Positions 25,521 through 57,390 of a stretch of 64,000 nucleotides of DNA are shown here, in pieces. Source of the stretch: Candidatus Omnitrophota bacterium (lineage in GTDB: Bacteria; Omnitrophota; Gorgyraeia; Duberdicusellales; 4484-171). Location: assembly GCA_003154195.1 (NCBI GenBank), contig PMCS01000025.1, positions 16,662-80,661 on the forward strand, in the 5' to 3' direction. How positions within the stretch are numbered: position 1 is the first letter of the stretch; every line of letters begins with the position of its first letter. The notes under the pieces are model-generated. The model had not been told where the DNA came from and did no database searches. It saw nothing but the letters and a program-made list of their open reading frames with translations. The position numbers were made by a program, and so were the translations under genes.

Positions 25521-27065
25521 TTATTCTCTTGAATTATTTTTATTCATACCAACAATTTTCAGGAATACGTCCACAATCTTCGGATCAAAATGTTTTCCCG
25601 TTTGTTCCCGGATTATCTTAATCGCCGCTTGTTTATTAAACGCTTTTCGGTAGGGACGGTTGCTGATCAGCGCCTGATAAACATCGGCCACGGCGATAAT
25701 GCGCGCGCCTAAAGGAATTTCTTCGCCTTTTAATCCTAAAGGATAGCCCGAACCGTCAAAACGCTCATGATGATATAGAATCGCCGGAATCGTTCCCCTT
25801 AACGCGTGGATCTCCCGTAAAATCTCCGTGGCAATCCAGGGATGAGTCTTGACCACCTCTCTCTCTTCTTTATTCAAAGGCCCTTTTTTTGCCAGAATAC
25901 TCTCATCGATGCCGACCTTGCCTAAATCATGCAAAATGGCCGCGCGTTTTACATTTTCTATTTCATCGCTGGGCACGGACAACTCCCGGGCAATTTTTTC
26001 GGCGATTACCGCCGTTGACTCCGTATGTTTGGCGGTATACGCATCCTTTACCTCAATCGCTTTAGCAAAACCGTAAATCATCTCCAGCAGATCCCGCGTG
26101 AGCAAAGAATCCATTTTTTTGATTCTCTCCTGCAATTCATCAACGCTTGCCTCTTCTTTTTCGCGGCAAACAATATTATAGGCGACGGGAGAATAGGGAA
26201 TGATTACGTTGCCGCCCTTGCCCTTAGCGGTCGCCAGGCATTTGGTTAAAGCATTAACCACATCGGCAGTATTAACGACATTATCCTGCGGGAAGGAAAC
26301 AAAAGCAATGCTCGCGTGAATACTCAAACTTAATTTTTTATACTTAAATTTGTGGCCGGCGATTTTATTTTTTATTCTCCGGGCAACCCGATAAGCATTA
26401 TCGCTCGATATATAAGGCATGATAATAAAAAATTCATCGTCGCGCCAGCGGCTGACAATATCTTCTTTTCGCAAAATCTTTTTTATAATTTTCACCATAT
26501 CGGAGATCATGCTGTCGGCGACTTTAATCCCGTAGAGTTCGTTTACCTGGCGAAAATAATCGATATCCACGGCGATGAACGAAAGATTGTAAAAATGCCG
26601 CCGGGCGCGGCTTAATTCCTGTTGGGAACGATGGACAAAATAACGCCAATTATAACAATCGCAGGAAGGATCGACTAAGGTAATTTTTTCAAGTTTTTTA
26701 TCTTTACTCAGAATACCGCGCTCTAGATTAAGTATCTTCCGGCGGGAAGCCACAACCCCCCACGCGCGGTGTATCTTGAAAAGAACCTTTTCCTTAGAAT
26801 GCCCGTCGACCAGATAATCGAGAAAACCAAACTTCCCAGTTAATTCAAAGTTATTTTCTCCCTCCCGGGAAAAATTAATAAAACAAACCTTATCCTGCAA
26901 CAGCTGCAGATTGATTTGTTTATTTTTCACCGCATCTTCGCTGAAAATAACAAGGGGGTAATCTTTTTTATACACATCTTTTATCCGGCGGGTGACGACC
27001 AGAGGAAGGAAGGGGAAGGGTTTATTCTTTAACGGTTTATCAGCGCAGTATAAAATTTTTTGCAT
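25521..27065 (-). CDS. HD-GYP c-di-GMP phosphodiesterase with degenerate GGDEF domain
   Basis: The GGDEF-like domain has RWRDDEFF in place of GGDEF. The C-terminal HD-GYP domain carries ILHDLGK ... HHERFDGSGYPLGL. Confidence 0.8.
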   Translation of the reverse strand: MQKILYCADKPLKNKPFPFLPLVVTRRIKDVYKKDYPLVIFSEDAVKNKQINLQLLQDKVCFINFSREGENNFELTGKFGFLDYLVDGHSKEKVLFKIHRAWGVVASRRKILNLERGILSKDKKLEKITLVDPSCDCYNWRYFVHRSQQELSRARRHFYNLSFIAVDIDYFRQVNELYGIKVADSMISDMVKIIKKILRKEDIVSRWRDDEFFIIMPYISSDNAYRVARRIKNKIAGHKFKYKKLSLSIHASIAFVSFPQDNVVNTADVVNALTKCLATAKGKGGNVIIPYSPVAYNIVCREKEEASVDELQERIKKMDSLLTRDLLEMIYGFAKAIEVKDAYTAKHTESTAVIAEKIARELSVPSDEIENVKRAAILHDLGKVGIDESILAKKGPLNKEEREVVKTHPWIATEILREIHALRGTIPAILYHHERFDGSGYPLGLKGEEIPLGARIIAVADVYQALISNRPYRKAFNKQAAIKIIREQTGKHFDPKIVDVFLKIVGMNKNNSRE

Positions 27066-27136
27066 AGCTGAAATATTTTACCATAGCTATGCTTTTTTGC
27101 AAGCAGTCTTGCCGCTGAACACGGTCATCCCGGCTT

Positions 27137-27532
27137 TCAAATTTTAGTACCCGCGCCTTTCGCGCGAAGCAAATCCGTTAAGCGGGCATACTGCGCAGAA
27201 TCGCCGTCATAAAATTCCAGGCCGACACGATAGCGGGGGATCCAGAGGGAAGAAGCAGTTTCCTTGCACCACACAACCTTGCCGATAAGCTTTATGGGAT
27301 CGGCCATTCCGGAGGAATAAAGACAAAAATATAAATGGCTGGCCGGTTCTATCTTTTCATTGGAAAAAAAGCACAGCCCTATCGGCCCGAGATCTTTGAG
27401 AAACGAAATACGGGCAGTAGACTTTCTGATTAAAGAATATTCAAACAAAGAACTCTCCTCTACCCTCGAAAACTCGCGGCGCTCCGCCCCTGCATAATCG
27501 CACCTGGAAGGAGTCATGGTTAAGTATACCAC
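27137..27532 (-). CDS. PilZ-domain protein (c-di-GMP receptor)
   Basis: RREFSR matches RRxxxR, and DLGPIG matches a D.S..G-like motif. The protein is 131 aa. Confidence 0.5.
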   Translation of the reverse strand: MVYLTMTPSRCDYAGAERREFSRVEESSLFEYSLIRKSTARISFLKDLGPIGLCFFSNEKIEPASHLYFCLYSSGMADPIKLIGKVVWCKETASSLWIPRYRVGLEFYDGDSAQYARLTDLLRAKGAGTKI

Positions 27533-27984
27533 GCCTCAAAAATGAATACCAATGCCGAAACGCAAAAAAATACCACGCCGCCGGGCAGGGAGATAACTTT
27601 TCGCCCAGACCAGAAAATGCGCAGCTCATTAAATTACAACGGGTTAAGCCCGATTAACCTGCTAAAAAAACGGTTGCTGTAAGCGTTTTCCTGAATTTTA
27701 TTTTTTGATGCGAAAAAAAGGATGGTATTGCAGTATGGAAGTACCGGACAAGTTTCACAGCGCACGCTACACATGCGCTCGCGATGAAGCCTCACTCATT
27801 ACCTCCCTATCGGGATAATTCAACTATAACCGGGATACCGGTCAAGTTTCATTACAAAATCTGAAGTCGCGCTTCGCGCTCCAACGATTTTGGCAATGAA
27901 GCCTGCCCTATACTCAGGGCATAGCTGAATTGATTCGGCTACAGCCTCACCCCTTCGCTCCGCTCAGGGGTAATTCGACTACAT

Positions 27985-28017
27985 CCAGCACTAATTTCAT
28001 TTTGAAATCAGTGCTGG
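27985..28017. repeat. Palindromic element CCAGCACT(A/G)AT-N11-ATCAGTGCTGG, 3' of cNMP-binding gene copy 1
   Basis: An 11-bp inverted repeat. The same motif recurs 3' of the paralogous gene at 28578-28614. Confidence 0.8.
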
Positions 28018-28030
28018 ATAAGTCTCATTA

Positions 28031-28540
28031 TTAAAATATCAAACCGCCGCCGGGCATATTTTTACGCCGGAGCCGGTGGGACATCTCGCTCATCATCTGA
28101 TACAGGATTTTTGCCGCGATTTGCGGCTTCTGATTAAATAATTTATTGAACTCGTTACGGCTGATTTCTAAAACCGACACTTCCTCCACCGCCGTCGCAG
28201 TCGCAGTCCTTAAGGCGTATTCAAAAAGGGTAATCTCGCCGAAAAATTCGCCCGACGAAAACGTAATAATTTCTTTTTCCCGGCCGGCTTCCTGTATGCT
28301 TATCTTTACCGTACCGTTCTTGATTACATACATCGTTTCGCCTTTTTCTTTTTCGCTGAAGATTTTCATTCCTCCGGCATACATCTTTTCATGAAAAAAT
28401 TCGATTGCATCATCCAATTCCTCAACGGTTAATAATTGAAATAAAAATAATTCTTTCAATTCGTTTATTCTTTTCTGCTCCATATATCCTCCCTGCCTCA
28501 TTCCCCCCTTCGGAGCAATGAATCTTGGCCTGCCGTTCAC
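28031..28540 (-). CDS. Stand-alone cyclic-nucleotide-binding (CNB) domain protein
   Basis: cNMP-binding beta-barrel with GEITLF and the phosphate-binding-cassette RTATA. There is no HTH or effector domain. The true start is probably Met20 (28483). Confidence 0.75.
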   Translation of the reverse strand: MNGRPRFIAPKGGMRQGGYMEQKRINELKELFLFQLLTVEELDDAIEFFHEKMYAGGMKIFSEKEKGETMYVIKNGTVKISIQEAGREKEIITFSSGEFFGEITLFEYALRTATATAVEEVSVLEISRNEFNKLFNQKPQIAAKILYQMMSEMSHRLRRKNMPGGGLIF

Positions 28541-28577
28541 GGCAAGGCTTAATTACATTATCGACTGAGTCTCATTA

Positions 28578-28614
28578 CCCAGCACTAATTTTGCTACACA
28601 AAATTAGTGCTGGG
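28578..28614. repeat. Palindromic element CCCAGCACTAATTTT-N7-AAAATTAGTGCTGGG, 3' of cNMP-binding gene copy 2
   Basis: Perfect 15-bp arms. It is flanked by the same gtctcatta and gtaattcggttacagcctc modules as copy 1. Confidence 0.8.
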
Positions 28615-28670
28615 TAATTCGGTTACAGCCTCTTGCTGCGCCCTGCGGGCTTGCAATCGGCTAAACCTCA

Positions 28671-29126
28671 TTAAATAAAAGCTGCCTCTTCGGGATGCTT
28701 ATCAAGCCGGCGCAGCCGTTTAGCCATATTTTGTATCAGAAAAAAAAGTATCTTAACTCCAATCGCGGAATGCGAAGAAATAAAATCGACGAATTCATTG
28801 CGCCGGATTTCTAAAAGTGAAGCCTCTTCGACGGCAACGGCGGAAGCGGTGCGCAAAACATAGCCGAACAAGGCAATTTCTCCGAACGTACCTCCGGAAC
28901 TTAACACGACCATTTCTGTTGTTTCCCCCTCCCGCTGCTTAGTGATTTTTACCGAACCGCTTTTGATTACATACATCGTATCGCCCTCATCTTTTTCGGA
29001 AAAGATTTTATCACCGGAAGAAACTTTCTTTTCGTGTAGAATAGCCGCGATTTGTTCGACTTCCTCATTGGTTAAAGTTTGGAACAGAAATAGCCTTCGT
29101 ATTTCTTCGAGTTGCTTGCCTTCCAT
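28671..29126 (-). CDS. Stand-alone cyclic-nucleotide-binding (CNB) domain protein (paralog)
   Basis: 151 aa, carrying GEIALFGYVLRTASAVA. It is a tandem paralog of 28031..28540. Confidence 0.75.
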   Translation of the reverse strand: MEGKQLEEIRRLFLFQTLTNEEVEQIAAILHEKKVSSGDKIFSEKDEGDTMYVIKSGSVKITKQREGETTEMVVLSSGGTFGEIALFGYVLRTASAVAVEEASLLEIRRNEFVDFISSHSAIGVKILFFLIQNMAKRLRRLDKHPEEAAFI

Positions 29127-29344
29127 AATTATATTTTAGCTTAAAAAATATGTTTATCAACGCTTTATTTGCTGATGCCTGCCTTCCTATAAGTAATACT
29201 TATTTATGGAATAACATGGGGGATCCCCTGGTAGTAAATGGCAGCTGGCGGGATAAAGCTATAACTTGATTGATAATAAATGGTTAGCGATGCCGGCACG
29301 AATACCGGGGAGAAAAAACCGAAAAGGAAAAAATATCTAAAATT

Positions 29345-29809
29345 TTATAGATAATTTTCTCTTGCCGTATTGCTGTTAGCCCATATTTCTCCCGTCGTAG
29401 GATTATATGCCCACCCGCCTGAATTTCCAATAACAGCACCCTTATAACGGCCGGAAGCGTTTACCACATTAGTCACATTATTATTCTCCACAAACAAATT
29501 GTGCGGGAAAGGATCGTTGACAACCGGCGAAACATAAGCGCCCCCACCCCTGCTTACCAGATTATTGGTCATCTCGCTTAAAGTGGGGACATTGCCGGTT
29601 TGGTCATAGCCCTTGACATTGATAGTGCCGTATTGGACGTTTATCCCACTTCTTAACGCGGCAAGAGATCCCGCAATTGCAGCAAGTTTAGCTTGATCAC
29701 GCAAATTAATAAATCTAGGTATCGCTGTAGCCGCTAAAATACCGATAATAACTATAACCATGATCAATTCAATAAGTGTAAAACTTTTTTTAAAAACATT
29801 AAACTTCAT
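29345..29809 (-). CDS. Prepilin-type N-terminal cleavage/methylation domain protein (T2SS pseudopilin / type IV pilin-like)
   Basis: KKSFTLIELIMVIVIIGILAATAIP is a class III signal, with S in place of the usual G at the cleavage site. The protein is 154 aa. Confidence 0.7.
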   Translation of the reverse strand: MKFNVFKKSFTLIELIMVIVIIGILAATAIPRFINLRDQAKLAAIAGSLAALRSGINVQYGTINVKGYDQTGNVPTLSEMTNNLVSRGGGAYVSPVVNDPFPHNLFVENNNVTNVVNASGRYKGAVIGNSGGWAYNPTTGEIWANSNTARENYL

Positions 29810-29933
29810 ATACCCCCCCTTCCTTTAGCAAAGTTGAATAATCAACTGTCGGAGTTTTCGTCTCCGGCATGCGTACTATAATTTTAACCGAAAAAATAGG
29901 TTTCGCAAACAAAAAAATAGCAACGAATGTATA

Positions 29934-32117
29934 TTATCTCCGCGGCACAGCACTTAGCCTTGCAATATTTTTGAGAACAATCGGATCATCGGGGTTGGTT
30001 TTTAAAACTTCCGAAAATTCTTTTTCCGCCTTTTCGTATAATCCCTGCCGGGCATAAACAACCCCGAGATTGACTCTTGCGTTAATGTTCCAGGGCCGGA
30101 CGTTCAACAGCTTGAGGTACCATTTCTCCGCTTGTTCGTATTGGCCATACAGCAGGCATATCCCGGCCATATCGTAATACGCTCCGTTTAAGCCGCCGCC
30201 AAATTTAATCGCGTCGCGGTAGCATTTAACTGCCAGGCCGATATTGTTCCGGCGATAATAAAGCGCGCCAAGATTAAGGCTGGCTAAAACCGAATGCGGA
30301 TTTATCTTTAAAGCGTTTTTGTATGAATCACCAGCCGACAAAAAATCGTTTTCCCTTGAATGGATTATCCCCAGGTTAATATATATATTCTCATCAAAAG
30401 AATCATAGATAAGAGCCTTCGTATAATTTTGTTTAGCTTTCTCGAAAACGGCAAACCGGGCAAAAAAATTACCTCGCCGGGAATATATCCGGGATAATAA
30501 TTTTGGGGAAAGGCCCCCTAAACTGCCGATATCGCTAAAATCGGAAGAAGCAACATCGATTCGATAGTTTTTAATAATTTTTTTATTTTCCTCTGAATCT
30601 TTAACAAAAACCACGGCGACATCGTCAAAGTACACAAGTTTCCACCCGGAATCAGAATAGAGATAGGTTAATAATTTGTCCAGGCCTTCTTCCACGTGAG
30701 ATAACAAAACGTAATTTATATTGTATTTTTTAACTATTTTTGGCCAAAGCCCGGGATCCTCGAGCAGCCGCACGTATTCCGTATAAAATTCCTCGCTATG
30801 CACCTCCAGCCTGCCGTCTAAGAATACTTTACGTTCGGGATAAAAACGCCAGATAAGATAATTTCCGCTTTGGAGGTCATTAAAAATGTTGCCCTTCAGG
30901 GAAGCTTTTTCCACAAAAGAAACCGCGGCGTCCGGATACTTAAATGGCGCCATGCCAAGATAAAAGCTCTTTTCGGTATTGCCCCGAATACGCTCTCCTC
31001 CTCCGGAGAGGTCGATTATACCAAGCGCTGTGATAACAGCGATAATACACGAACCGGCAAAACGGATATCGCCGCGCGCCAGGAATTCCTTTACCCGTCC
31101 CCTTACCGCCTGGCACAGGTTCTCCGTTATAATCGGAACGCACACTAAGGCGAACGGCGGAATATTGCGCCGGGCTAAAAAAGAAAGGCCGAAAAAAAAT
31201 GAATAAGATATCAGGTGGGGCCAGGAAAGACGGCGCGAATTAATCAACATCGCCGCGAAGGACAACGCCAGGATAGATTTATAAAAAAGGATGGTGGTGT
31301 TCGGGCAAAAAGAAGAAAAAGGCGGCTGGATTTCTCCTACGGGCAATTCTCCGACCGCAGAAAATATTTTGATGCTGCCGTTGATCCTGTCCAAAAGCGT
31401 AAAAGGAAAAATAAAAGCACGGTAGGTGTAAGGGTTCAGAAAAGAGACGACAGTTATAAGCGCTGCGGCAACCAAAAGACGCCGGTAGTCTTCCCCTTCT
31501 ATACGGCAAGCCTTATCGTTTAAAACCGGTAATTTTACGCGCGAGCTTAAGGTTTCGCCTAAAACATACGAATAAACCAGCACGATTCCCAGGATAAACA
31601 ACGCATGGCTGTTAACCCAGAACAGTTGTACCAGGGGCAGAAGATAAATGTAATTTTTATTGTATCCGGAGCCGGCGTATTTATAACGGTGCAAAACGTA
31701 GACAAATATACTCAGGTAAAAATAGCTGAATACTTCCGGACGCAAAGAACCTCTTTCCCACAGGCATAGCGCGGCAAGAAAAACCGCTGCGGCGGTAAAA
31801 AAATATTCGCCAGGGCCGTATACAGCCTTGAAGATAATTAAAAAAATCGACAGGACAACCAGGGCATTAAACAAAATCAATCCGCTGCAGCCGGAATATT
31901 TGTATACCAGGAAAAGTATTGCCTGAAACAACCACTGCATATCCATCCAAGGTTTACCTACCGAGGTATAGGAATATAAATCGGTATGGGGAATTTTAAA
32001 ATTTTGGATAATATACTGGCCGGTCTTAAGGTGCCACCACAAGTCGAAAGACTGAATATCGTGGACGAACAGCAGGAAGATAAACAAGAAGAGTAAAAAT
32101 ATAGAAAAACGTTTCAT
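29934..32117 (-). CDS. Polytopic membrane protein with C-terminal TPR repeats (TMTC/PMT-like GT-C fold candidate)
   Basis: About 13 TM segments followed by 6 or more TPR units. It is a paralog of 32311..34461. Confidence 0.6.
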   Translation of the reverse strand: MKRFSIFLLFLFIFLLFVHDIQSFDLWWHLKTGQYIIQNFKIPHTDLYSYTSVGKPWMDMQWLFQAILFLVYKYSGCSGLILFNALVVLSIFLIIFKAVYGPGEYFFTAAAVFLAALCLWERGSLRPEVFSYFYLSIFVYVLHRYKYAGSGYNKNYIYLLPLVQLFWVNSHALFILGIVLVYSYVLGETLSSRVKLPVLNDKACRIEGEDYRRLLVAAALITVVSFLNPYTYRAFIFPFTLLDRINGSIKIFSAVGELPVGEIQPPFSSFCPNTTILFYKSILALSFAAMLINSRRLSWPHLISYSFFFGLSFLARRNIPPFALVCVPIITENLCQAVRGRVKEFLARGDIRFAGSCIIAVITALGIIDLSGGGERIRGNTEKSFYLGMAPFKYPDAAVSFVEKASLKGNIFNDLQSGNYLIWRFYPERKVFLDGRLEVHSEEFYTEYVRLLEDPGLWPKIVKKYNINYVLLSHVEEGLDKLLTYLYSDSGWKLVYFDDVAVVFVKDSEENKKIIKNYRIDVASSDFSDIGSLGGLSPKLLSRIYSRRGNFFARFAVFEKAKQNYTKALIYDSFDENIYINLGIIHSRENDFLSAGDSYKNALKINPHSVLASLNLGALYYRRNNIGLAVKCYRDAIKFGGGLNGAYYDMAGICLLYGQYEQAEKWYLKLLNVRPWNINARVNLGVVYARQGLYEKAEKEFSEVLKTNPDDPIVLKNIARLSAVPRR

Positions 32118-32240
32118 TGTAGATATTTTACAATAAAGCGCGTAAAATCCAATAGGATTATATATTCAGGGCGGTCAGACTCGCTTATCCCATTAGCCGT
32201 AATAAAATCTGGTCCACCATAAACGACGGGACTTGGTTTT

Positions 32241-32254
32241 ATTATACCCCCCCC
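32241..32254 (-). promoter_or_regulatory. Poly-G8 tract abutting a TATAAT -10 box upstream of 29934..32117
   Basis: The minus strand reads GGCGGGC-GGGGGGGG-TATAAT, about 125 bp upstream of the ATG. The homopolymer sits in the promoter spacer. Confidence 0.4.
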
Positions 32255-32310
32255 GCCCGCCTACCGGCGGGGACGAAAGCAAGACGGGACGTCGCCCCGC
32301 GGGGCTCCAG

Positions 32311-34461
32311 TCAAGGAGTTTTATCCAATAATCTTAAATTCTTTAACGCCGCTTTATTGCCGGGATCGGACGCCAGGATTTTTAAAAATTGCCGGCGCGC
32401 TTTATCCGGCCGGCCTTCTTTCGCATAGAGCACACCGAGGTTTATCATCGTATCGATATGCCATGGCCGTATTCTTAACGCTTGCAAATACAAACTTTCG
32501 GCACGCTCATATTGCCCGTAGGCCATGCCGATGCCTGCGGCGTTAAAATACGCTTCGGCAAAGGAATGATCCGCCATGGCGGCCCGCTGAAAATAGTTCA
32601 AAGCCATACCGGTTTCTCCCCGGCCATAATAAAGATTACCCAGATTAAACAGCGCGCGCGAAGAACGGGAAACTATACTTAAAGCTGTTTCGTACTCTTC
32701 GATCGCTTCTTCGTAACGCCAAGCATTTTGATACAGTATGCCCATGTTTATGTATACCGCGTTATCGTAAGGTTTGAATATCAGGGATTTTACATAATTG
32801 TCGCGCGCCTTGTCGTAAATACCCAGCCGGGCGAAAAGATTACCGCGGGAAAAATAGATAGAGGCTTTGTCCCCGTCATCGAATGCAATGGTATCGTCTG
32901 ATGAAAAATCGGCAAACACCGGGAAGATTTCGCAGCCCCTTATCGTCGCGCTATTTTCCGGAGAATCCTTTAAAAAAACTACGGATAGGTCGTCGCAAAA
33001 AACCAATTTCCACCGCGGGCTATGATAAAGATAAACCAGCAACTTATCCATGTCGGCGTCGCGATGAGAAAACAAAGCGTAATTTATGGAATATTTTTGC
33101 GAAAAACTTTCCCATAACAAAGGTTGTTCCAGAAGGCGCACGTATCCGGCATAAAAATCGGTGCCGTGAACTTCCAACCGGCCGTCAAAAAGTACCTTTC
33201 GTCCGGGGTAAAAACGCCATATAAGATAACCGCCGCTTTGCAGGTCGTTAAACATATTACCTTTCAATCCGTGCCTGAGTACAAAGGAAGCCGCTCCTTC
33301 GGGAAATTTAAAAGGCGCTATTCCCAAAGATAATTTTCTCTCGATATCATCGCGGATAATCCGGCCGTTATAAATAAGGTCGTTAATGCAAAAAAGCAAT
33401 ACCAGCGAAAATACAAAGAGCGATACCAGCTGAACCGTTTTATGGAAACGGAAAGCACTTTTGCGGTTTTCCAGAAATTGGCATAAATTCTCCGCGGTAA
33501 CCGGCAGGCATACCAGGGCAAAAAGGGCTATATTGCGCCTGGCCAGTAATGATAAGCATAAAAACACGCCGTAAAGTATAAGGTGCGAAAAAGAAAGGCG
33601 CTTCACATTAAGCGCAAAGCATAATGCCGAAACAAATATAAGTATTTTGTAAAAACCAATCGCTCCGCCACGGCAAAGATAAGAAAAAGAAGGGTTTAAC
33701 TCCCCTATCGTCAGCGCTAAAACCTTAAATTGGCCGCTCATATGCGTAAACAATGTATAAGGAAATAATGCGCCTTTGAAGCCGTAAGGATTAATAAAAA
33801 GAACAATTAAGCTTAAAGCCGCGGCAAGCGTAAGATGAAAATAACTGCGGCCGGTTATTATCCTGCCTTCCTTGAAAAACGGCAAACGGTTTTTGGCGGA
33901 TAAGAATTCCCCCAGTACAAATGACCACATTATCACCGCACCGAGCATAAATAGCCCGTGGCTGTTGACCCATAAAAGTTGTATCACAGGGATGAGATAA
34001 ATATATTTGCCGGCAGAAGAATATTTGTAGCGGTGCAAAATATACAAAAAAGCAGCTAAATATAGAAAGGTAAACATTTCCGGCCGGATGTAGGTACGTT
34101 CCCAGAAGGACAGAGCGCAAAGCAACGAAACAGAGATTACGGCAAAAACCCTTTCCGGCCGGTAAACCGATTTAAATAAGATGAAAAACGCCGCCAGAAG
34201 GACCAGCGTTTTAAATAATATAATCCCGGCAATATTGAAAAGTTTATAAACCCCGAAGATAGCCAGCTCGAACAGCCATTGCATATCGATCCAGGATTTC
34301 CCGCAAGAAGCCTGCGAATACATATCGGTATGCGGGACAGCGTGGTTACCGGCAATGTATTTACCGGTAGCGAGATGCCGCCATAGATCATGGGATCGGA
34401 TGTCGTGGGTAAATAATAAAGCAAAAAATAAAAACAGGAAGAATATGGCTAATCGTCGCAT
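32311..34461 (-). CDS. Polytopic membrane protein with C-terminal TPR repeats (paralog)
   Basis: Same architecture as 29934..32117, with similarity along the full length. Confidence 0.6.
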   Translation of the reverse strand: MRRLAIFFLFLFFALLFTHDIRSHDLWRHLATGKYIAGNHAVPHTDMYSQASCGKSWIDMQWLFELAIFGVYKLFNIAGIILFKTLVLLAAFFILFKSVYRPERVFAVISVSLLCALSFWERTYIRPEMFTFLYLAAFLYILHRYKYSSAGKYIYLIPVIQLLWVNSHGLFMLGAVIMWSFVLGEFLSAKNRLPFFKEGRIITGRSYFHLTLAAALSLIVLFINPYGFKGALFPYTLFTHMSGQFKVLALTIGELNPSFSYLCRGGAIGFYKILIFVSALCFALNVKRLSFSHLILYGVFLCLSLLARRNIALFALVCLPVTAENLCQFLENRKSAFRFHKTVQLVSLFVFSLVLLFCINDLIYNGRIIRDDIERKLSLGIAPFKFPEGAASFVLRHGLKGNMFNDLQSGGYLIWRFYPGRKVLFDGRLEVHGTDFYAGYVRLLEQPLLWESFSQKYSINYALFSHRDADMDKLLVYLYHSPRWKLVFCDDLSVVFLKDSPENSATIRGCEIFPVFADFSSDDTIAFDDGDKASIYFSRGNLFARLGIYDKARDNYVKSLIFKPYDNAVYINMGILYQNAWRYEEAIEEYETALSIVSRSSRALFNLGNLYYGRGETGMALNYFQRAAMADHSFAEAYFNAAGIGMAYGQYERAESLYLQALRIRPWHIDTMINLGVLYAKEGRPDKARRQFLKILASDPGNKAALKNLRLLDKTP

Positions 34462-34651
34462 GAATTCCTTTTTTATATATTTCGGTAATATTGTAATATT
34501 TTTCAGGAGGAATGTAAATTAGTTTAAATTTTTTACGTCGCGAAAACAATATAAATTCCTAAACATTCCTAAAATTTTCACGCTTTTTGATATAACCCCT
34601 TGGGATATAAAGAATTAAAAAATAAAAACCAAAAAAGCAACAAATAAAGAT

Positions 34652-34750
34652 TTCCCGCAAAGTTCGCCAAGCAAAGAAAATAATAAGAGAATCGACACCC
34701 TTTGCGAACTTTCTCTCTTCTGGAAGGCTTCGCTCGCCTTTGCGGGAAAA
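34652..34750. repeat. Inverted-repeat element, family E copy 2
   Basis: Perfect terminal inverted repeats tttcccgcaaag / ctttgcgggaaa. The internal segment gcgagcgaagcc is inverted relative to copy 1. Confidence 0.7.
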
Positions 34751-34857
34751 TTTTTGGTTGTTTTCAAAAATGGGTAAACTTCTGGCCTAAATTCCGCTTT
34801 ACTTCCGGTTGCGATACTGCTAAAATTCATTTTTAACTTAGCGCGAGGTTACACCAT

Positions 34858-37631: not shown

Positions 37632-37674
37632 GCAAACATAAGGAAGCTCAATCCCGGCGATAAACCCTAAACCT

Positions 37675-38406: not shown

Positions 38407-38438
38407 TAAATAAAACTTTCTTCATCTGCCGAAGAAAA

Positions 38439-40569: not shown

Positions 40570-40588
40570 TTGTCCTGAATAAACCCGA

Positions 40589-41275
40589 TTATTTATCCTG
40601 GCTGTTGTATGCGCACGCCAGAAACGTCAGCGTCCGGTTTTTTGTCGCGTCACGCCGGTGCGAAGGGAAACCGCGCCGGTCACAAAAGCTGCATAAGCCA
40701 ATATCGCAAAAATTGCCTCCTTTCACCCCCCGGCGCATTAACCGGGAACGGGCAAAACCGATGGGATCAAAATAGATACAATCGTTTTCTTTCGTAAGAA
40801 AATCATCAAAACCGCGATAGGTAAGAAATTCTTCCCCCACGCGATAGCAACACTTGCGCAGCCCCACCCCGGCAACAACCTTAAATGCCGCCAAGTCGTA
40901 AGGTATATTATCCAGAATACCTTCCCTGGCCGAGCGCCATCCCATGTGTACCACCCCGGCAACTCCGGCTTTCTCGCTTACAAAAATAAGCGGCAGGCAA
41001 TCGGCGGTTTTAACAATAAGCGGATGGTTTTTATCTTTCGTAAAAAGCGCGTCTCCTTCGTAAATGCCGGGCTTTGACACCTCATAGACAATCGAAGAAT
41101 GGATTTGTTTCATATAGCTTGCTTCGCCGCCGCATCGCAAGACGGATAATACTTTCGCGATATCATCGGGAAGTTTACCTTTTATCTTTTTACCGGTAAA
41201 GCCGGCGATAAACGCGCCGGCAAAAAAATCTTCCAAAAAAAAGCAATCTTTTTTCTTAAATACCTTCAATTTCAA
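40589..41275 (-). CDS. pgeF: YfiH/PgeF family (purine nucleoside phosphorylase / peptidoglycan editing factor)
   Basis: TADCLPLIF and VHMGWRSAREGI (the HxGWRG motif) identify DUF152. Confidence 0.8.
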   Translation of the reverse strand: MKLKVFKKKDCFFLEDFFAGAFIAGFTGKKIKGKLPDDIAKVLSVLRCGGEASYMKQIHSSIVYEVSKPGIYEGDALFTKDKNHPLIVKTADCLPLIFVSEKAGVAGVVHMGWRSAREGILDNIPYDLAAFKVVAGVGLRKCCYRVGEEFLTYRGFDDFLTKENDCIYFDPIGFARSRLMRRGVKGGNFCDIGLCSFCDRRGFPSHRRDATKNRTLTFLACAYNSQDK

Positions 41276-41680: not shown

Positions 41681-42556
41681 TTATTTATTTAGTTTCGCCA
41701 ATATTTTCTTAGCGCGGTCTTCTAACTTTTTCGCCCGGCCTTCGTCTTCGCAATTTCGTACCACCTTTGCCGTCTTTTCCAAAACTTCGGCAACCGGTGC
41801 GCTATCTTTACCGTAAACCTTTTCGGCTATCTCCAGTATTTTTTTATAAATAAACAAAGCTTCGGAATTTTTCCCCTGCTCCGCGTATAGCCCGGCCAGG
41901 TTATGAAGGCTTAAAATCGTCTCGGAATGATTTGGGCCGAAAATTTTCTCTTTTATCTCCAGGACGCGCTTGCAATATATATCCGCTTCCATAAACCGGC
42001 GCTCAATCCGATAAAGCCCGGCTAAGCTATCAATGGTAGCGACGGTATCGGGGTGGTGAGAGCCTAACGTAGCTTCTCTTATCGTCAGGGTTTGTTTATA
42101 AAAATTCTCCGCGCTTTGGTATTCTTTCTTCGCGTCGTATAGTTTAGCTAAATTATCCAGAGGGCAAGCGGTAAAAGGGTGGATTTTACCGGCGGCACCC
42201 TCCAAGATCCCCAGCGAACGCTGGTAAAACGATTCCGCCTCGGTAAAACGGCCCTCGAAATCGTAAAGGGCGCCGAAGTTGTTAAGGATGCAGCCTTCAT
42301 CCAGCTTCCCGCTCCCGAAGCAGTTCTGCAATATAACCAGTGTTTTATTATAAAGAGTTTCGGCCTCGGAGTATACTTCCTGCGCCTCATAGAGCAAAGC
42401 GAAATTATTAAAAACCGGTACCGATTCATAACTATCCGGCCCGTATATTTTTCCGATTATCGCCAGGGATTCATTATAATACTTAGTTGCCTCATCCAGG
42501 CGCCCCTGTAGATAACAATGAATACCGAAATTGTTCAACGTCATCGTCTCGTCCAC
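41681..42556 (-). CDS. TPR-repeat protein (C-terminal 291 aa of a gene interrupted by the IS insertion; GTG start created at the junction)
   Basis: TPR_12-type repeats. Joining the flanks after removal of 42594-45102 gives a continuous reading frame with the fragment 45086..45370. Confidence 0.75.
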   Translation of the reverse strand: MDETMTLNNFGIHCYLQGRLDEATKYYNESLAIIGKIYGPDSYESVPVFNNFALLYEAQEVYSEAETLYNKTLVILQNCFGSGKLDEGCILNNFGALYDFEGRFTEAESFYQRSLGILEGAAGKIHPFTACPLDNLAKLYDAKKEYQSAENFYKQTLTIREATLGSHHPDTVATIDSLAGLYRIERRFMEADIYCKRVLEIKEKIFGPNHSETILSLHNLAGLYAEQGKNSEALFIYKKILEIAEKVYGKDSAPVAEVLEKTAKVVRNCEDEGRAKKLEDRAKKILAKLNK

Positions 42557-45458: not shown

Positions 45459-46019
45459 TCAGTTCTTTAGTTTTTCGGTTATCTTCTCAAAAATCTCTTC
45501 CGGTTCAGGCATCCGGCCGTCGCCGCACGCACCGCAGGCAAGCTCACCCTTTTCCGGCGGCATAATCATATACTTTCCTAACCGCCTTAATTTATCGGCG
45601 TTATCCTGAATAATTTTATTCTGCCACATCTTTTCATTCATCGCCGGAACCAGCAAAACATTGACCTTATCCGAGAAAGCGCAAACAACCGTCGTCAGCA
45701 GATTATCGCAGATTCCTCCGGCAATTTTAGAAAGGGTATTAGCCGTCAGCGGCGCGATAACACATAAATCCGGCCAGTCGGCAAGAGAAATATGCTCGAC
45801 GCCTTCCCGGCGGTCAAGCGAAAACATATCCGTATACACTGGATTATTTGACAATGCCTGAAAAACAAGAGGCGAAACAAATTTTGCCGCCGCTTCAGTC
45901 ATAACCACCTTCACGCTATATCCGCCTTTAACCAATAACCTTACCAATTCGCAGGTTTTATAACTGGCGATCCCGGCACACACTCCGACTAATATATTTT
46001 TTCCTTTTTTCATATACAT
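45459..46019 (-). CDS. coaC: Phosphopantothenoylcysteine decarboxylase (stand-alone CoaC flavoprotein)
   Basis: Flavoprotein domain with KNILVGVCAGIASYKTCELVRLL, corresponding to the Dfp N-terminal half. Confidence 0.8.
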   Translation of the reverse strand: MYMKKGKNILVGVCAGIASYKTCELVRLLVKGGYSVKVVMTEAAAKFVSPLVFQALSNNPVYTDMFSLDRREGVEHISLADWPDLCVIAPLTANTLSKIAGGICDNLLTTVVCAFSDKVNVLLVPAMNEKMWQNKIIQDNADKLRRLGKYMIMPPEKGELACGACGDGRMPEPEEIFEKITEKLKN

Positions 46020-46124
46020 CTCCTTCTCCCATTACTGTCGATTGATCCACAGAACATTCTTTTATTCTTTATAATAGACGCTCCGTTTATTCGTTTAATG
46101 CAAGTTTTATTAAGCCGACTAGAT

Positions 46125-47126
46125 TTAACGCGATTCCATTCGGATATCGAAAACACCGTTGATTAAGGAAATTCTCTTCTTTCGCACAATCTGATTATTT
46201 TCTTTATCCATAGTTTGGATTAATTTAATAATATCTTGATTGCCCGCCGCTTGCGCGATGTCCCGCGCATTCTTGCCATCTTTATTTTTTCGCTCCACAT
46301 CGGCTCCATTTTTTATCAAAATATCGGCAATCTCTTTTTGATTATTATGGCAAGCATACATCAGGGCTGTCCAACCGCTACTGTTTGACTCATCAAGATA
46401 TACGTGCTGATCGCTAAGAAGTAATTTCACAATATCCTCATGGCCTTCGCGAACGGCTAATGCCAACGGAGCGTTGCCGGTCATCGGATCGCCTCCCCCC
46501 TTACCTGTGCTATTGGCGCTGGCTTTATTCGCCATAAGAATTTTCACTATTTCTGTATACCCATTCTGTGCGGCAATTTGCAATGGGGTTAAAGCCGGTA
46601 TGTCTCTTCCATAAAATAAGCTCGGGTTTATGTCCGGCTTTACGCCGTTTTTCAATAGCCGTTTAACTTTTTCTAAATTATTTTGTTCTACGGCGGCTAC
46701 TAAACTACTATATAATTTTTTCGCAATATCCAATTTTGCCCTTATTAATTTTATCGCCTCATTAGGGCCGGTATTATCGGCGCCAATTGAATAATAAACA
46801 AAAGGATCACCAGCCTGGACATCGGCGCCTTTATCTAATAAATAATTAACTATATCAAGGTGCCCCGCGAAAGCGGCAGCCACTAAGGCTGTCTGGCCTT
46901 TAGAAGTAGCATAATTTACATCGGTGCCTTGCTCAACTAAAGATTTGACTTCGGCTAATTGGCCTTTTTCAGCGGGTAGTACCAGGTTATGGCGTGGCGC
47001 CTTGTCAAATAACTCGGCGTTATTTTTTTTACCATACCCCGCAGAAGGCCCACTAAGGCTAACCAAAATTATTAAGCCAAATAATTGCAAAATCTTTTTC
47101 ATTATTTTTTCCCCATCTTGCCACAA
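46125..47126 (-). CDS. Secreted ankyrin-repeat protein
   Basis: A signal peptide (probable start Met9 at 47102) and at least 5 ANK repeats (GQTALVAAAFAGHLDIVNYLLDKGADV, TPLQIAAQNGYTEIVKILM, WTALMYACHNNQKEIADILIKNGADV). Confidence 0.85.
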   Translation of the reverse strand: MWQDGEKIMKKILQLFGLIILVSLSGPSAGYGKKNNAELFDKAPRHNLVLPAEKGQLAEVKSLVEQGTDVNYATSKGQTALVAAAFAGHLDIVNYLLDKGADVQAGDPFVYYSIGADNTGPNEAIKLIRAKLDIAKKLYSSLVAAVEQNNLEKVKRLLKNGVKPDINPSLFYGRDIPALTPLQIAAQNGYTEIVKILMANKASANSTGKGGGDPMTGNAPLALAVREGHEDIVKLLLSDQHVYLDESNSSGWTALMYACHNNQKEIADILIKNGADVERKNKDGKNARDIAQAAGNQDIIKLIQTMDKENNQIVRKKRISLINGVFDIRMESR

Positions 47127-47740
47127 AATAAAATACTACGAATCTTATCCGCCAAGTCTTCCTTCGAATTTGACTCAACTATCTTCTTATACTTATCGAT
47201 CAAAAATGCCTTATATCCTTTTTTTAAATCTTCATAAGCGTTCGCCACGACCAAATCGCTTTTATTGCGCAAAAGGCTATCGTATGCTTTATCGATTAAA
47301 CCCTCGCGCCCTATCTCCAGTTTAAATTGCACAAGCTTTGCCGCCGGAACGGCCTTTCTTATTATTTTAATGATTTTTTCGGCGGGCATAAGATTTAAAC
47401 TCAAACTTTTCTTCCCCGAAGAAATCTTGCCGCCAAATGCTCTTGCCAATTTATAATCGCTTACTGCCGCGCTATGAATAACTGCGTCGTATTTTTTTCC
47501 GGCCAGCTCGCACTTCACTACCTGCTTCAGTTCGTCAAAGTAACGGAACGGAACAACTCTTATCCCCTTTTCTTTGATTTCGCCTAAAGCATGGTTATTG
47601 ACCACCAGCGTAACATCACACCCCTTATCGCGCAGCCGGCGCGCGATAAACAAACCGGTAGCGCCGGTAAAGACGGTAGTCAAAATCCTTACCTCATCGA
47701 TTTTTATCCAGGTCGGCCCGGCCGTCACTAACATTTTCAT
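47102..47740 (-). CDS. coaB: Phosphopantothenate-cysteine ligase (stand-alone CoaB)
   Basis: DFP domain with LVTAGPTWIKIDEVRILTTVFTGATGLFIA and HSAAVSDYK. Confidence 0.8.
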   Translation of the reverse strand: MKMLVTAGPTWIKIDEVRILTTVFTGATGLFIARRLRDKGCDVTLVVNNHALGEIKEKGIRVVPFRYFDELKQVVKCELAGKKYDAVIHSAAVSDYKLARAFGGKISSGKKSLSLNLMPAEKIIKIIRKAVPAAKLVQFKLEIGREGLIDKAYDSLLRNKSDLVVANAYEDLKKGYKAFLIDKYKKIVESNSKEDLADKIRSILFCGKMGKK

Positions 47741-52879: not shown

Positions 52880-52957
52880 TTTTTCGTATTTTCTTACAAC
52901 ATAAAAATTTTAGCCTTTTTTCGCGATACAAGTTTTTAAAAGGGGTAAAATTTTTAT

Positions 52958-53965: not shown

Positions 53966-53972
53966 TCTGTCC
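53808..53972. repeat. Inverted-repeat element, family A copy 3 (165 bp) in the batB-batC spacer
   Basis: gtccacagatttcgcagattgctcggatt is inverted relative to aaatctgtgacaatctgagcaatctgtcc. Confidence 0.75.
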
Positions 53973-54069
53973 CGGTACCCTTTATAACAATATTAAGGTG
54001 CGGGACGCCCCGAACATTAATAGATTATTCAGGGTAACGGGGCTGTGGACAATATTCTTTGTTTTTTAT

Positions 54070-55089: not shown

Positions 55090-55106
55090 ATAGTTCTGTT
55101 ATGCGC

Positions 55107-56099: not shown

Positions 56100-56114
56100 A
56101 GTATGATTTTTTGA

Positions 56115-57350: not shown

Positions 57351-57390
57351 CTCTCATCCCTCATCCTTCTATTTTTCTCTTCTCTCTCGC

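What the first reader, a model, noticed from the sequence alone, without database searches (positions are those of the whole stretch)
28031..29126. Tandem paralogous stand-alone cNMP-binding-domain proteins next to c-di-GMP (HD-GYP, PilZ) and pilin genes
Two proteins of 150-170 aa consist of a CNB domain only (GE(I/L)(A/T)LF, RTA phosphate-binding cassette) with no HTH or effector domain. They sit between a prepilin-type gene and a PilZ protein plus a degenerate-GGDEF/HD-GYP phosphodiesterase. Effector-less CNB proteins must act through partner proteins. Together these genes look like a compact second-messenger module, cyclic mononucleotide together with c-di-GMP, controlling a pilus-like surface structure.
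Basis: partly seen in the sequence, partly recalled or inferred. Interest (0 to 1): 0.55.

Follow-up and report, generated by a model that had tools for sequence, protein, structure and literature searches.

The report
Paired stand-alone cyclic-nucleotide-binding proteins
Two neighbouring genes of an uncultured Omnitrophota bacterium encode small proteins made only of a cyclic-nucleotide (probably cAMP) sensor domain; the protein type is ordinary, and their position beside pilin and c-di-GMP genes is peculiar to this genome, not a conserved signalling module.

Summary
The genes at 28671..29126 and 28031..28483 (minus strand) encode proteins of 151 and 150 aa. Each is a single cNMP_binding domain with a canonical phosphate-binding cassette. 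They are 52% identical to each other, have no HTH, and are under purifying selection. The neighbours are as described: a prepilin, a PilZ protein, and a degenerate-GGDEF/HD-GYP protein.

The "compact module" reading does not hold. In a sister genome (79% orthologue) the CNB gene directly follows yfiH. The pilin gene lies on an 11.5-kb block that the sister genome lacks at this site. The first CNB gene has its own promoter-like site, which the sister genome also has. Gaps of 187-513 nt rich in hairpins separate the genes. None of 12 related loci has a PilZ, HD-GYP or pilin gene next to the CNB genes.

What is conserved is the pair itself: an A-type followed by a B-type gene in 8 of 8 pairs, each type with its own C-terminal tail. 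In relatives the pair often ends an envelope-glycan gene cluster. In four loci it lies beside a class III cyclase with adenylate-cyclase specificity residues.

The organism is Omnitrophota Fen-1317. Verdict: new members of a known kind, namely stand-alone CNB proteins that are probably cAMP receptors acting through unknown partners. Interest is low to moderate.

The parts
28671..29126 (-). CNB-A: 151-aa stand-alone cyclic-nucleotide-binding protein, the first gene of the pair
   Evidence: ORF. Pfam cNMP_binding, E 5e-21. AF2 model with pLDDT 91: beta-barrel plus a long C-helix. Foldseek matches CRP/GlxR effector domains and the stand-alone CNB protein 3gyd. The 79% orthologue in L014 gives dN/dS 0.045. 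It groups with first-position genes in the NJ tree, but only weakly by BLAST score.
28031..28483 (-). CNB-B: 150-aa stand-alone cyclic-nucleotide-binding protein, the second gene of the pair. The mechanical ORF extends to a GTG at 28540.
   Evidence: ORF. Pfam cNMP_binding, E 1.5e-20. A GGGAGG SD precedes the ATG at 28483. Best hits are the second genes of pairs in L017, L018, L022, L102-L105, at 49-62% identity. It has the B-type tail RLRRKNxPGGGLIF.
29128..29160 (-). Promoter-like site TTGATA-16-TAAAAT. The -10 box is followed by 6 nt and then the CNB-A ATG (a leaderless-looking arrangement).
   Evidence: Consensus scan. The same arrangement, TTGACT-17-TAAAAT-6 nt-ATG, is present in the sister contig L014 although the upstream gene differs. 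This is a consensus match only; function is not shown.
28574..28618 (.). Perfect 20-bp hairpin with a 5-nt loop between CNB-A and CNB-B. It has no U-tract.
   Evidence: Inverted repeat I2. Its arm CCAGCACTAATTT is shared with the hairpin after CNB-B. A role as terminator or RNA stabiliser is inferred.
27983..28019 (.). Related 17-bp hairpin 12 nt after the CNB-B stop codon
   Evidence: Inverted repeat I4. It shares its arm sequence with 28574-28618.
27533..28030 (-). Non-coding stretch of about 500 nt between CNB-B and the PilZ gene. It is packed with hairpins and short local repeats (linker GGCTGTARCCGAAT, three copies).
   Evidence: RNA fold -180 kcal/mol, z = -5.9 against shuffles. Repeats. 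No Rfam family matches. It separates the CNB pair from the c-di-GMP genes.
27137..27517 (-). Context only, not shown to belong: a PilZ-domain protein (126-131 aa)
   Evidence: Pfam PilZ, 30 bits. RxxxR is present and the second motif is DLGPIG. No PilZ gene lies next to CNB genes in related loci.
25521..27065 (-). Context only, not shown to belong: a 514-aa protein with a degenerate GGDEF (RDDEF) and an intact HD-GYP domain
   Evidence: Pfam GGDEF and HD_5. Motifs read. NCBIfam gives a partial match to an HD-GYP phosphodiesterase.
29345..29809 (-). Context only, not shown to belong: a 154-aa prepilin-type protein at the edge of an 11.5-kb block absent from the sister genome at this site
   Evidence: Pfam N_methyl. 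NCBIfam matches cover the pilin/pseudopilin N-terminus only. The block boundary comes from blastn of L014 against the window.

Best explanation
The two genes are the A and B members of a gene pair conserved in Omnitrophota. Each encodes a single-domain cyclic-nucleotide receptor: a CNB beta-barrel, a long C-terminal helix, and a short conserved hydrophobic tail.

Shown here:
- The CNB fold is intact and the phosphate-binding cassette is canonical.
- There is no effector or DNA-binding domain.
- The genes are under purifying selection.
- The gene order A then B is kept in all pairs examined.
- The pilin, PilZ and HD-GYP neighbourhood is specific to this genome.

Inferred:
- The ligand is cAMP, because in relatives the pair sits next to a CHASE2-type class III cyclase with adenylate-cyclase specificity residues.
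- The proteins dimerise through the C-helix as CRP does, possibly as A/B heterodimers.
- Nucleotide occupancy is passed on by binding or releasing a partner protein, in the manner of the PKA regulatory subunit.
- The most likely target area is cell-envelope glycan assembly, because in relatives the pair closes glycan or polysaccharide gene clusters. It is not a pilus or the adjacent c-di-GMP proteins.
For: Domain and fold:
- Pfam cNMP_binding is the only hit.
- The AF2 model has pLDDT 91.
- Foldseek gives TM 0.78-0.88 to CRP, GlxR and the stand-alone CNB protein 3gyd.

Ligand site:
- G57, F81, G82, E83 and R92 are invariant in 62 family sequences. The Gly of the beta2-beta3 loop (G48) is kept in at least 90%.
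- This matches the canonical motif FGE[LIV]AL..R and the Gly169/Arg209 coupling described for cNMP-binding CNB domains (PMC2246266).
- The cassette aligns without gaps to PKA RII-alpha.

No HTH. NCBIfam CRP scores 47-64 bits against a cutoff of 266 and matches only the CNB part.

Pair conservation:
- The NJ tree and BLAST split the family into first-gene and second-gene clades. The order A then B is kept in 8 of 8 pairs.
- The C-terminal tails are type-specific.
- All 120 best profile hits are CNB-only proteins of 129-279 aa.

Selection: dN/dS 0.045 against L014.

Cyclase link:
- A convergent cyclase gene lies next to the CNB genes in L017, L018, L105 and L021.
- The L018 cyclase best matches CyaB (3r5g). 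It has Lys in DKYVGD, where the guanylate cyclase Cya2 has DEFMGD, and Asp in MDYTVIG.

Glycan link: the immediately upstream same-strand gene is Wzy_C (L018, L105), an epimerase (L104), Glycos_transf_4 (L016), or a 686-aa membrane protein in a GT2 cluster (L102, L103, L022). These genes overlap the CNB gene or lie up to 57 nt away.

Independence from the neighbours here: CNB-A has its own promoter-like site, conserved in L014. The pilin gene is on the 11.5-kb indel. There is a hairpin-rich 500-nt gap before the PilZ gene.
Against: - No ligand-binding data exist. The RTA cassette does not discriminate between cAMP and cGMP.
- No cyclase is present in the 64-kb window. The rest of the genome was not available.
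- Dimerisation and partner binding are inferences. No multimer prediction could be run.
- The glycan association is not universal. L014 has yfiH upstream, L019 a Macro-domain gene, and L021 an SMC gene. Glycan and TPR genes are also frequent in these genomes, so part of the association could be background.
- The window's first gene is a divergent A-type: BLAST bits are 142 (A) against 140 (B), and its tail HPEEAAFI departs from the A consensus.
- The side downstream of the pair could not be examined in the sister genome because contig L014 ends in CNB-A. Conservation of the PilZ/HD-GYP adjacency at very short evolutionary distance is therefore untested.
Confidence: 0.6

Rival explanations
1. 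The CNB pair, the PilZ protein, the degenerate-GGDEF/HD-GYP enzyme and the prepilin form one functional module. In it a cyclic mononucleotide signal is integrated with c-di-GMP, for example by CNB proteins regulating the HD-GYP phosphodiesterase in trans, to control a pilus-like surface structure.
For: - All five genes lie on one strand within 4.3 kb.
- Fusion proteins of cNMP_binding with HD-GYP exist and form a large family. L031 is one example (351 aa), and 118 of the 120 best clusters carry both domains.
- The cNMP-activated EAL phosphodiesterase Bd1971 shows that such convergence occurs (PMC6717892; PMC8846402).
Against: - The adjacency is not conserved. The pilin gene lies on an 11.5-kb block absent from the sister genome at this site.
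- No PilZ, N_methyl or HD-GYP gene occurs in 12 related loci. There are no BLAST hits for the PilZ or pilin proteins in 96 loci covering 665 kb. BLAST is weak for such short, divergent proteins.
- The intergenic gaps are large and each gene has its own promoter-like site.
- The window has no pilus assembly genes.
Confidence: 0.12
2. The proteins are HTH-less derivatives of CRP/FNR regulators. They act as dominant-negative or modulating subunits by heterodimerising through the C-helix with a full-length CRP-family regulator encoded elsewhere. They would thereby tune transcription rather than act on envelope enzymes.
For: - The closest domain-bearing relatives are 220-aa CRP/FNR proteins, 33-35% identical over the CNB domain plus C-helix.
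- The best structural matches are CRP/GlxR effector domains including the dimerisation helix.
- In L102, L103, L022 and L018 a small HTH_17 protein is encoded downstream of or near the pair.
Against: - The window contains no CRP-family regulator and no HTH_17 homologue.
- By sequence the family is as close to PKA/PKG CNB domains as to CRP.
- The conserved A/B pairing and the specific tails suggest a self-contained pair.
Confidence: 0.12
3. The CNB-like domains bind a different small molecule, or none, as in CooA, CprK, NtcA and trypanosome PKA. The pair would then have nothing to do with cNMP signalling.
For: The CNB scaffold is known to have been re-used for other ligands (PMC2246266; PMC10959531 listed). 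No cyclase is present in the window.
Against: - The families that use other ligands have non-canonical cassettes. Here the Glu and Arg of the cassette are invariant and the coupled Gly is near-invariant in 62 sequences.
- Adenylate-cyclase-type genes flank the pair in four relatives.
Confidence: 0.08
4. The proteins are remnants or accessories of a cyclic-nucleotide-based anti-phage system of the Pycsar type.
For: Weak PADLOC hits to Pycsar TIR effectors and PycC (E 1e-6 to 5e-11).
Against: - The hits cover only the CNB portion of those models (about positions 17-147 of about 300).
- There is no TIR or transmembrane effector domain, and no pyrimidine cyclase nearby.
- The pair is vertically conserved and under strong purifying selection.
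Confidence: 0.02

Closest known systems
Stand-alone CNB-domain proteins of unknown function solved by structural genomics (Mfla_1926, PDB 3gyd; also 3mdp and 5d1i), annotated generically as 'cyclic nucleotide-binding domain-containing protein'
   Same: Single CNB domain with a C-helix and no effector domain. 3gyd is the best structural match by query coverage (TMq 0.87-0.88). Database names for family members are of the same generic type.
   Different: Sequence identity is only 22-23%. Those proteins are not known to occur as conserved A/B pairs, and they lack the tails seen here (..LFI and ..PGGGxxF).
CRP/FNR-family transcription factors (E. coli CRP, M. tuberculosis CRP, C. glutamicum GlxR)
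   Same: The effector domain and the long dimerisation helix superpose at TM 0.78-0.83. The cassette has the same Glu and Arg. The nearest multi-domain homologues by sequence belong to this family.
   Different: There is no HTH domain, and the CRP equivalog score is far below its cutoff. The proteins therefore cannot bind DNA by themselves.
Regulatory subunit of cAMP-dependent protein kinase (PKA R) and PKG CNB domains
   Same: These are the best sequence matches in the PDB (E 2e-20), with a gapless cassette alignment. This is the working model for a CNB protein that acts in trans, holding or releasing a partner according to nucleotide occupancy.
   Different: PKA R has two CNB domains in one chain plus docking and inhibitor segments. 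Here two separate single-domain proteins are encoded side by side, and no kinase partner is evident.
cNMP-regulated c-di-GMP phosphodiesterases: Bd1971 (CNB-EAL; PMC6717892) and the CNB-HD-GYP fusion family (for example L031 1321-2376)
   Same: A CNB domain is coupled to c-di-GMP hydrolysis. The CNB domain of the L031 fusion is 40% identical to CNB-A.
   Different: In those proteins the domains are fused. In the window the HD-GYP protein is a separate gene about 1 kb away with its own N-terminal and GGDEF domains, and the adjacency is not conserved.
CbpA of Pseudomonas aeruginosa, a cAMP-binding protein that is not a transcription factor (Endoh and Engel 2009, cited in PMC11139211)
   Same: A bacterial cAMP receptor without a DNA-binding output, whose partner is unknown.
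   Different: From my own knowledge, not tested here: CbpA is larger, with an additional degenerate CAP-like domain, and is under Vfr control. No sequence comparison was made.

Membership tests
CNB (cNMP_binding, PF00027) superfamily | Profile match above the curated threshold | tested here: met
   73.4 and 74.8 bits against a cutoff of 27.5.
CNB (cNMP_binding, PF00027) superfamily | Eight-stranded beta-barrel with a helical subdomain | tested here: met
   AF2 model with pLDDT 91. Foldseek probability 1.00 to many CNB structures.
Canonical cNMP-binding CNB domains (as opposed to CNB-like domains with other ligands) | Cassette FGE[LIV]AL..R with the phosphate-binding Arg and the Glu, plus the coupled Gly in the beta2-beta3 loop (PMC2246266) | tested here: met
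   FGEIALFGYVLRTA and FGEITLFEYALRTA. E83 and R92 are invariant and G48 is kept in at least 90% of 62 sequences.
Canonical cNMP-binding CNB domains | Measured binding of cAMP or cGMP, and the selectivity between them | not testable with these tools
   The only evidence is indirect: adenylate-cyclase-type neighbours in relatives.
CRP/FNR transcription factors | C-terminal helix-turn-helix DNA-binding domain | tested here: not met
   No HTH Pfam hit. tblastn with five CRP/FNR relatives aligns only residues 25-141. The proteins end 8-12 residues after the C-helix.
CRP/FNR transcription factors | NCBIfam CRP, FNR or FtrB equivalog score at or above the cutoff | tested here: not met
   46.8 and 64.1 bits against 266 for CRP. 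All other models also fall below their cutoffs.
Pycsar anti-phage effectors | CNB domain fused to a TIR or transmembrane effector, next to a PycC cyclase | tested here: not met
   PADLOC hits cover only the CNB part. The window has no TIR or transmembrane domain of that kind and no cyclase.
Pilus-linked cAMP circuit (of the Pil-Chp / CyaB / Vfr type) or any pilus regulatory module | Linkage to pilus assembly or chemosensory genes, and conservation of that linkage | tested here: not met
   The window has only one prepilin-type gene and no PilB/C/M-Q/T or Chp genes. The prepilin gene is absent at this site in the sister genome and from all related loci.
Conserved gene neighbourhood with c-di-GMP genes (the proposed 'module') | PilZ and/or HD-GYP genes adjacent to orthologous CNB genes in other genomes | tested here: not met
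   0 of 12 related loci. Only L021 has an unrelated GAF-GGDEF gene, 2 kb away. The sister contig ends before this side, so the closest relative is uninformative.
Omnitrophota A/B pair of stand-alone CNB proteins (a grouping defined in this study) | Two adjacent same-strand CNB-only genes, A-type first and B-type second, with type-specific C-terminal tails | tested here: met
   Order and clades. CNB-B has the full B tail (RLRRKNMPGGGLIF). CNB-A groups with the A clade in the tree, but its tail (HPEEAAFI) and its BLAST scores (142 against 140) are atypical.
PilZ c-di-GMP receptors (the neighbouring gene) | RxxxR and (D/N)x(S/A)xxG c-di-GMP-binding motifs | tested here: inconclusive
   RREFSR is present. 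The second motif reads DLGPIG, with Gly in place of Ser/Ala. Pfam gives 30 bits against a cutoff of 22.5.

The most novel reading that the evidence does not exclude
The A and B proteins form an obligate heterodimeric, effector-less cAMP receptor specific to Omnitrophota and neighbouring candidate phyla. It is fed by a CHASE2-domain adenylate cyclase that senses an extracellular cue. It acts post-translationally on envelope-glycan polymerisation or export proteins (Wzy-like and large uncharacterised membrane proteins), perhaps by docking its conserved C-terminal tails. cAMP would then directly switch surface-glycan assembly in these ultra-small, possibly host-dependent bacteria. In this genome the pair would have been brought next to a newly acquired glycosylation/pilin island and a PilZ/HD-GYP unit.
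Probability: 0.15. Interest if true: 0.55.

Novelty: new member of a known kind. Interest (0 to 1): 0.3.

Why it matters
Little is at stake for the original claim. Stand-alone CNB proteins are common and already carry generic annotation, and the attractive "cNMP plus c-di-GMP plus pilus module" is a coincidence of gene order in one genome.

The modest value lies elsewhere. Second-messenger signalling in Omnitrophota is not discussed in the main survey of the phylum; its main text has no mention of cAMP, cyclic nucleotides or c-di-GMP. This study finds a conserved two-gene A/B set of effector-less receptors, recurrently linked to an adenylate cyclase and to glycan clusters. That gives a concrete, testable entry point for how non-transcriptional cAMP receptors work in bacteria. 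Very few such receptors have known partners.

Tried and rejected
- Hidden or frameshifted HTH: rejected.
- Operon with the pilin gene: rejected on three grounds. The gap is 218 nt, a promoter-like site is conserved in the sister genome, and the pilin gene lies on an 11.5-kb indel.
- Riboswitch or known RNA in the structured 500-nt spacer, such as a c-di-GMP riboswitch ahead of the PilZ gene: no Rfam match at gathering score, and only sub-threshold matches at E<=1, none to a riboswitch family.
- Hairpins as integron attC sites or a CRISPR array: rejected by eye. There is no GTTRRRY core and no integrase or cas genes. The repeats are confined to the two CNB 3' regions.
- TPR proteins as conserved partners: TPR genes are near the pair in 4 of 6 long loci. 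The window itself has about one TPR gene per 10 kb, so this is not distinguishable from background.
- The representative-library search was uninformative. Its ranking was swamped by giant multi-CNB proteins. It showed only that the superfamily is huge (98,470 clusters) and that few single-domain clusters score above 160 bits.
- The genome-contig scan found only distant relatives. The metagenome scan gave mostly 30-35% relatives, useful only as background.
- Pycsar membership: rejected.
- Same-species contigs are at least 99.6% identical and give no comparative information.
Full report
**1. What is there**

On the minus strand the window carries two short ORFs, 28671..29126 (151 aa) and 28031..28540 (169 aa from a GTG). 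The second almost certainly starts at the ATG at 28483, giving 150 aa. A GGGAGG ribosome-binding site lies 6 nt upstream, and every homologue starts at the equivalent Met.

Each protein gives one Pfam hit, cNMP_binding (E about 1e-20, 73-75 bits against a cutoff of 27.5), and nothing else. The two are 52% identical over 140 residues without a gap (E 5e-48).

- The prepilin-type protein at 29345..29809 has an N_methyl hit, the sequence KKS|FTLIE, and Glu at position +5.
- The PilZ protein at 27137..27517 has an intact RxxxR motif. Its second motif is DLGPIG.
- The 514-aa protein at 25521..27065 has RDDEF in place of GGDEF. Its HD-GYP domain (HDLGK, HHERFDGSGYP) is intact.

**2. The organism**

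Contigs carrying identical proteins include PMEA01000141 of assembly GCA_003154645.1. That contig is 99.95% identical to the window over 4.4 kb. The genome table of Seymour et al. 2023 lists this assembly as Omnitrophota, class Velamenicoccia (GTDB Koll11), genus Fen-1317, from Stordalen Mire (PMC10066038 supplement). The closest named homologues of the CNB proteins are also from Omnitrophica/Omnitrophota MAGs.

**3. The proteins**

An AlphaFold2 model of the 151-aa protein, built on a 62-sequence alignment, has mean pLDDT 91. It shows an N-terminal helical segment, the eight-stranded barrel, and a 24-residue C-terminal helix. The last four residues are disordered.

Foldseek finds CRP, GlxR and other CRP-family effector domains at TM 0.78-0.83. 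The best coverage is to Mfla_1926 (3gyd), itself a stand-alone CNB protein (TMq 0.87-0.88). By sequence the best PDB hits are the CNB domains of PKA RII-alpha and PKG, with the cassette aligned without gaps: FGELAL....RAA against FGEIAL....RTA.

Across 62 family members the cassette residues F81, G82, E83 and R92 are invariant. The beta2-beta3 Gly (G48) is present in at least 90%. This is the canonical pattern that Kannan et al. associate with true cNMP binders. It contrasts with the altered cassettes of CooA, CprK, NtcA and FNR (PMC2246266). The Thr in RTA occurs in both cAMP and cGMP binders (my knowledge), so selectivity cannot be read from it.

No DNA-binding domain exists. tblastn with the five nearest HTH-bearing relatives aligns only their residues ~25-141. 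NCBIfam CRP scores are 47-64 bits against a cutoff of 266.

Comparison with the 79% orthologue in contig L014 gives dN/dS about 0.045, with dS saturated. The gene is under purifying selection.

**4. The family and the pair**

A single-sequence search found only six close relatives. A profile search found about 50 proteins of 139-173 aa at 148-244 bits. All 120 listed hits contain cNMP_binding only. The exhaustive representative search shows how large the superfamily is (98,470 clusters at E<=0.001). Its ranking was dominated by multi-CNB giants, and only about ten single-domain clusters scored above 160 bits.

Reading the contigs of family members showed that the genes usually come in twos. 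BLAST and an NJ tree split the family into two clades that correspond to gene position. First genes are the A-type, with tail ..R(M)N(V/I)Qxxx(L)FI. Second genes are the B-type, with tail ..RLRRKNxPGGG(I/L)(I/V)F.

The order A then B holds in all eight pairs examined: the window, L017, L018, L022, L102, L103, L104 and L105. Of 48 family proteins, 17 classify as A, 25 as B and 6 are ambiguous.

The window's second gene is a typical B. Its first gene, together with its L014 orthologue, is a divergent branch beside the A clade. The duplication is therefore old and the pairing is maintained. This suggests the two act together, although a heterodimer is an inference.

**5. Test of the proposed module**

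- Upstream side. Contig L014 (sister species) has a TPR gene (75% to window 41681..42556), yfiH (61% to 40589..41275), and then the CNB-A orthologue after 103 nt. blastn places L014 1036-1854 on window 41477-40662 and L014 2022-2490 on window 29138-28670. The 11.5 kb between these (29.14-40.66 kb) are absent from the sister at this site. This block holds the prepilin gene, two 716-727-aa TPR-membrane proteins, a PMT_2 protein, two GT2 proteins and two membrane proteins without a Pfam match. Part of it has lower G+C (39-42% against 44-48%).
- Promoter. A promoter-like TTGAYN-16/17-TAAAAT box lies 6 nt before the ATG in both genomes. CNB-A therefore appears to have its own, leaderless-looking, promoter.
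- Spacing. Within the window the gaps are 218 nt (pilin to A), 187 nt (A to B), about 500 nt (B to PilZ) and 71 nt (PilZ to HD-GYP). The A-B gap holds a perfect 20-bp hairpin, and a related 17-bp hairpin follows B. The 500-nt gap folds far better than shuffles do (z = -5.9).
- Other genomes. None of the 12 related loci with precomputed Pfam annotation has a PilZ, N_methyl or HD-GYP gene near the CNB genes. BLAST of the window's PilZ and pilin proteins against 96 non-self loci (665 kb) finds nothing, although BLAST is weak for such short, divergent proteins.
- Pilus genes. No pilus assembly gene is in the window.

One caveat remains: L014 ends inside CNB-A, so the downstream side is untested in the nearest relative.

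**6. What is conserved around the pair**

- Envelope-glycan genes. The immediately upstream same-strand gene is Wzy_C in L018 and L105. It is a sugar epimerase at the end of a DegT/epimerase/GT cluster in L104, and Glycos_transf_4 in L016. In L102, L103 and L022 it is a 686-688-aa membrane protein at the end of a radical-SAM/GT2/methyltransferase cluster. Spacing ranges from overlap to 57 nt. In the window the inserted block next to the pair also encodes glycosyltransferases.
- A class III cyclase. A convergent CHASE2-Guanylate_cyc gene follows the pair in L018 and L105. Its orthologue (72-76% identical) follows the pair in L017. A 295-aa cyclase abuts the single B-type gene in L021. The L018 catalytic domain best matches P. 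aeruginosa CyaB (3r5g, E 8e-46). It has Lys in DKYVGD, where the guanylate cyclase Cya2 (2w01) has DEFMGD and the engineered adenylate-cyclase chimera (6fht) has DKFMGD. It also has Asp in MDYTVIG. This is the adenylate-cyclase pattern; the interpretation of these residues is from my knowledge of class III cyclases.
- Lineage-specific extras. A secreted Big_5-like protein ending in GDCGC occurs in L018, L105 and L104. A 74-aa HTH_17 protein occurs in L102, L103, L022 and L018. None of these, and no cyclase, is in the window.
- Exceptions. L014 has yfiH upstream, L019 a Macro-domain gene, L021 an SMC gene, and L015 a PEMT gene between two CNB genes. The association is recurrent but not universal. 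Glycan and TPR genes are common in these genomes.

**7. Mechanism**

Shown: intact cNMP-type sensor domains, no output domain, a conserved A/B pair, and purifying selection.

Inferred:
- The ligand is cAMP, from the cyclase neighbours.
- The proteins dimerise through the long C-helix as in CRP (review statement in PMC8846402).
- The signal is relayed by nucleotide-dependent binding of a partner, as in the PKA R subunit.
- The conserved hydrophobic C-terminal tails are candidates for a lid or docking element. This is speculation.

I put about 0.6 on this overall picture, about 0.3 on envelope-glycan assembly as the target, and about 0.12 on the adjacent HD-GYP/PilZ proteins as the target.

Two precedents keep the HD-GYP/PilZ target alive. 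Bd1971 is a cNMP-activated EAL phosphodiesterase (PMC6717892). CNB-HD-GYP fusions are a large family: L031 is an example, and 118 of the 120 best clusters carry both domains.

**8. Comparison, novelty and score**

The proteins are members of the CNB superfamily with a canonical cassette. They are not CRP/FNR regulators, because they lack an HTH. They are not Pycsar effectors. Stand-alone CNB proteins are common, have solved structures (3gyd, 3mdp, 5d1i) and carry generic database names. These two are therefore new members of a known kind.

The conserved A/B pairing, the tails, and the recurrent cyclase and glycan context in Omnitrophota are not mentioned in the main text of the phylum survey. 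These are small new observations. Interest: 0.3.

Noticed in passing
window 27533-28030 and 28541-28670: The 3' regions of both CNB genes carry related long hairpins (a 20-bp perfect stem at 28574-28618 and a 17-bp stem at 27983-28019, sharing CCAGCACTAATTT). They also carry a local linker repeat, GGCTGTARCCGAAT, in three copies. The 500-nt spacer folds with z = -5.9. There is no Rfam match, and the repeats occur nowhere else in the 64 kb. The A/B duplication is ancient, so the near-identical hairpins must be recent, either a REP/MITE-like element or gene conversion. Their function is unknown.
   Followed up: partly
window 29140-40660: An 11.5-kb block is absent at this site from the sister contig L014. 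It contains a prepilin-type gene, two paralogous 716-727-aa multi-pass membrane proteins with C-terminal TPR repeats, a PMT_2 protein, two GT2 proteins, and two membrane proteins with no Pfam match. G+C is lower in part of the block. It looks like an acquired glycosylation island. The prepilin-like protein may be its substrate or a cargo gene rather than a pilus subunit.
   Followed up: partly
window 42612-45030: A second insertion relative to L014: an MvaI/BcnI-type restriction endonuclease, an N4/N6 DNA methyltransferase and an IS1595-family transposase.
   Followed up: partly
window 3676-12327 (-): A giant 2883-aa ORF combines HEAT repeats, a GDE_C (amylo-alpha-1,6-glucosidase-like) domain and, at its C-terminus (aa 2591-2768), an ECF-type sigma-70 region 2 and region 4. 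A sigma-factor domain at the end of a giant protein is unusual. Omnitrophota are known for very long proteins.
   Followed up: no
window 45459-47740 (-): The CoaC-like flavoprotein gene (45459..46019) and the CoaB-like DFP gene (47102..47740) are separated by a 333-aa ankyrin-repeat protein gene (46125..47126) that overlaps the DFP gene.
   Followed up: no
window 29128-29160, 27523-27552, 27075-27102 (-): Promoter-like -10 boxes (TAAAAT, TATACT) end only 5-9 nt before the ATG of the CNB-A, PilZ and HD-GYP genes. None of these has a Shine-Dalgarno sequence, which suggests leaderless transcripts. CNB-B and the prepilin gene do have strong SD sequences.
   Followed up: partly
L018 9112-9744; L105 2224-2907; L104 8987-9424: In three relatives the CNB pair is followed by a conserved small secreted protein with a weak Big_5 (Ig-like) match and an invariant C-terminal ...F(K/S)GDCGC. 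The window has no homologue.
   Followed up: partly
L031 1321-2376 and proteins P0291-P0410: A large family of ~350-aa proteins fuses an N-terminal cNMP_binding domain to an HD-GYP domain (found in Spirochaetaceae and many metagenomes). This is a likely cNMP-regulated c-di-GMP phosphodiesterase class, analogous to Bd1971. I found no paper describing it in the searches made.
   Followed up: partly
window 50295-59482 (-): A Bat/MoxR-type operon: MoxR AAA_3 ATPase, DUF58, two BatA-VWA proteins, a TPR protein, BatD, and a TPR-SH3 protein. It is an ordinary aerotolerance-type cluster.
   Followed up: no
window 2723-3469 (-) and L015 527-1312: A PEMT (phospholipid methyltransferase-like) gene lies in the window 25 kb from the pair. 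In contig L015 a PEMT gene sits directly between two CNB genes. This may be coincidence.
   Followed up: no
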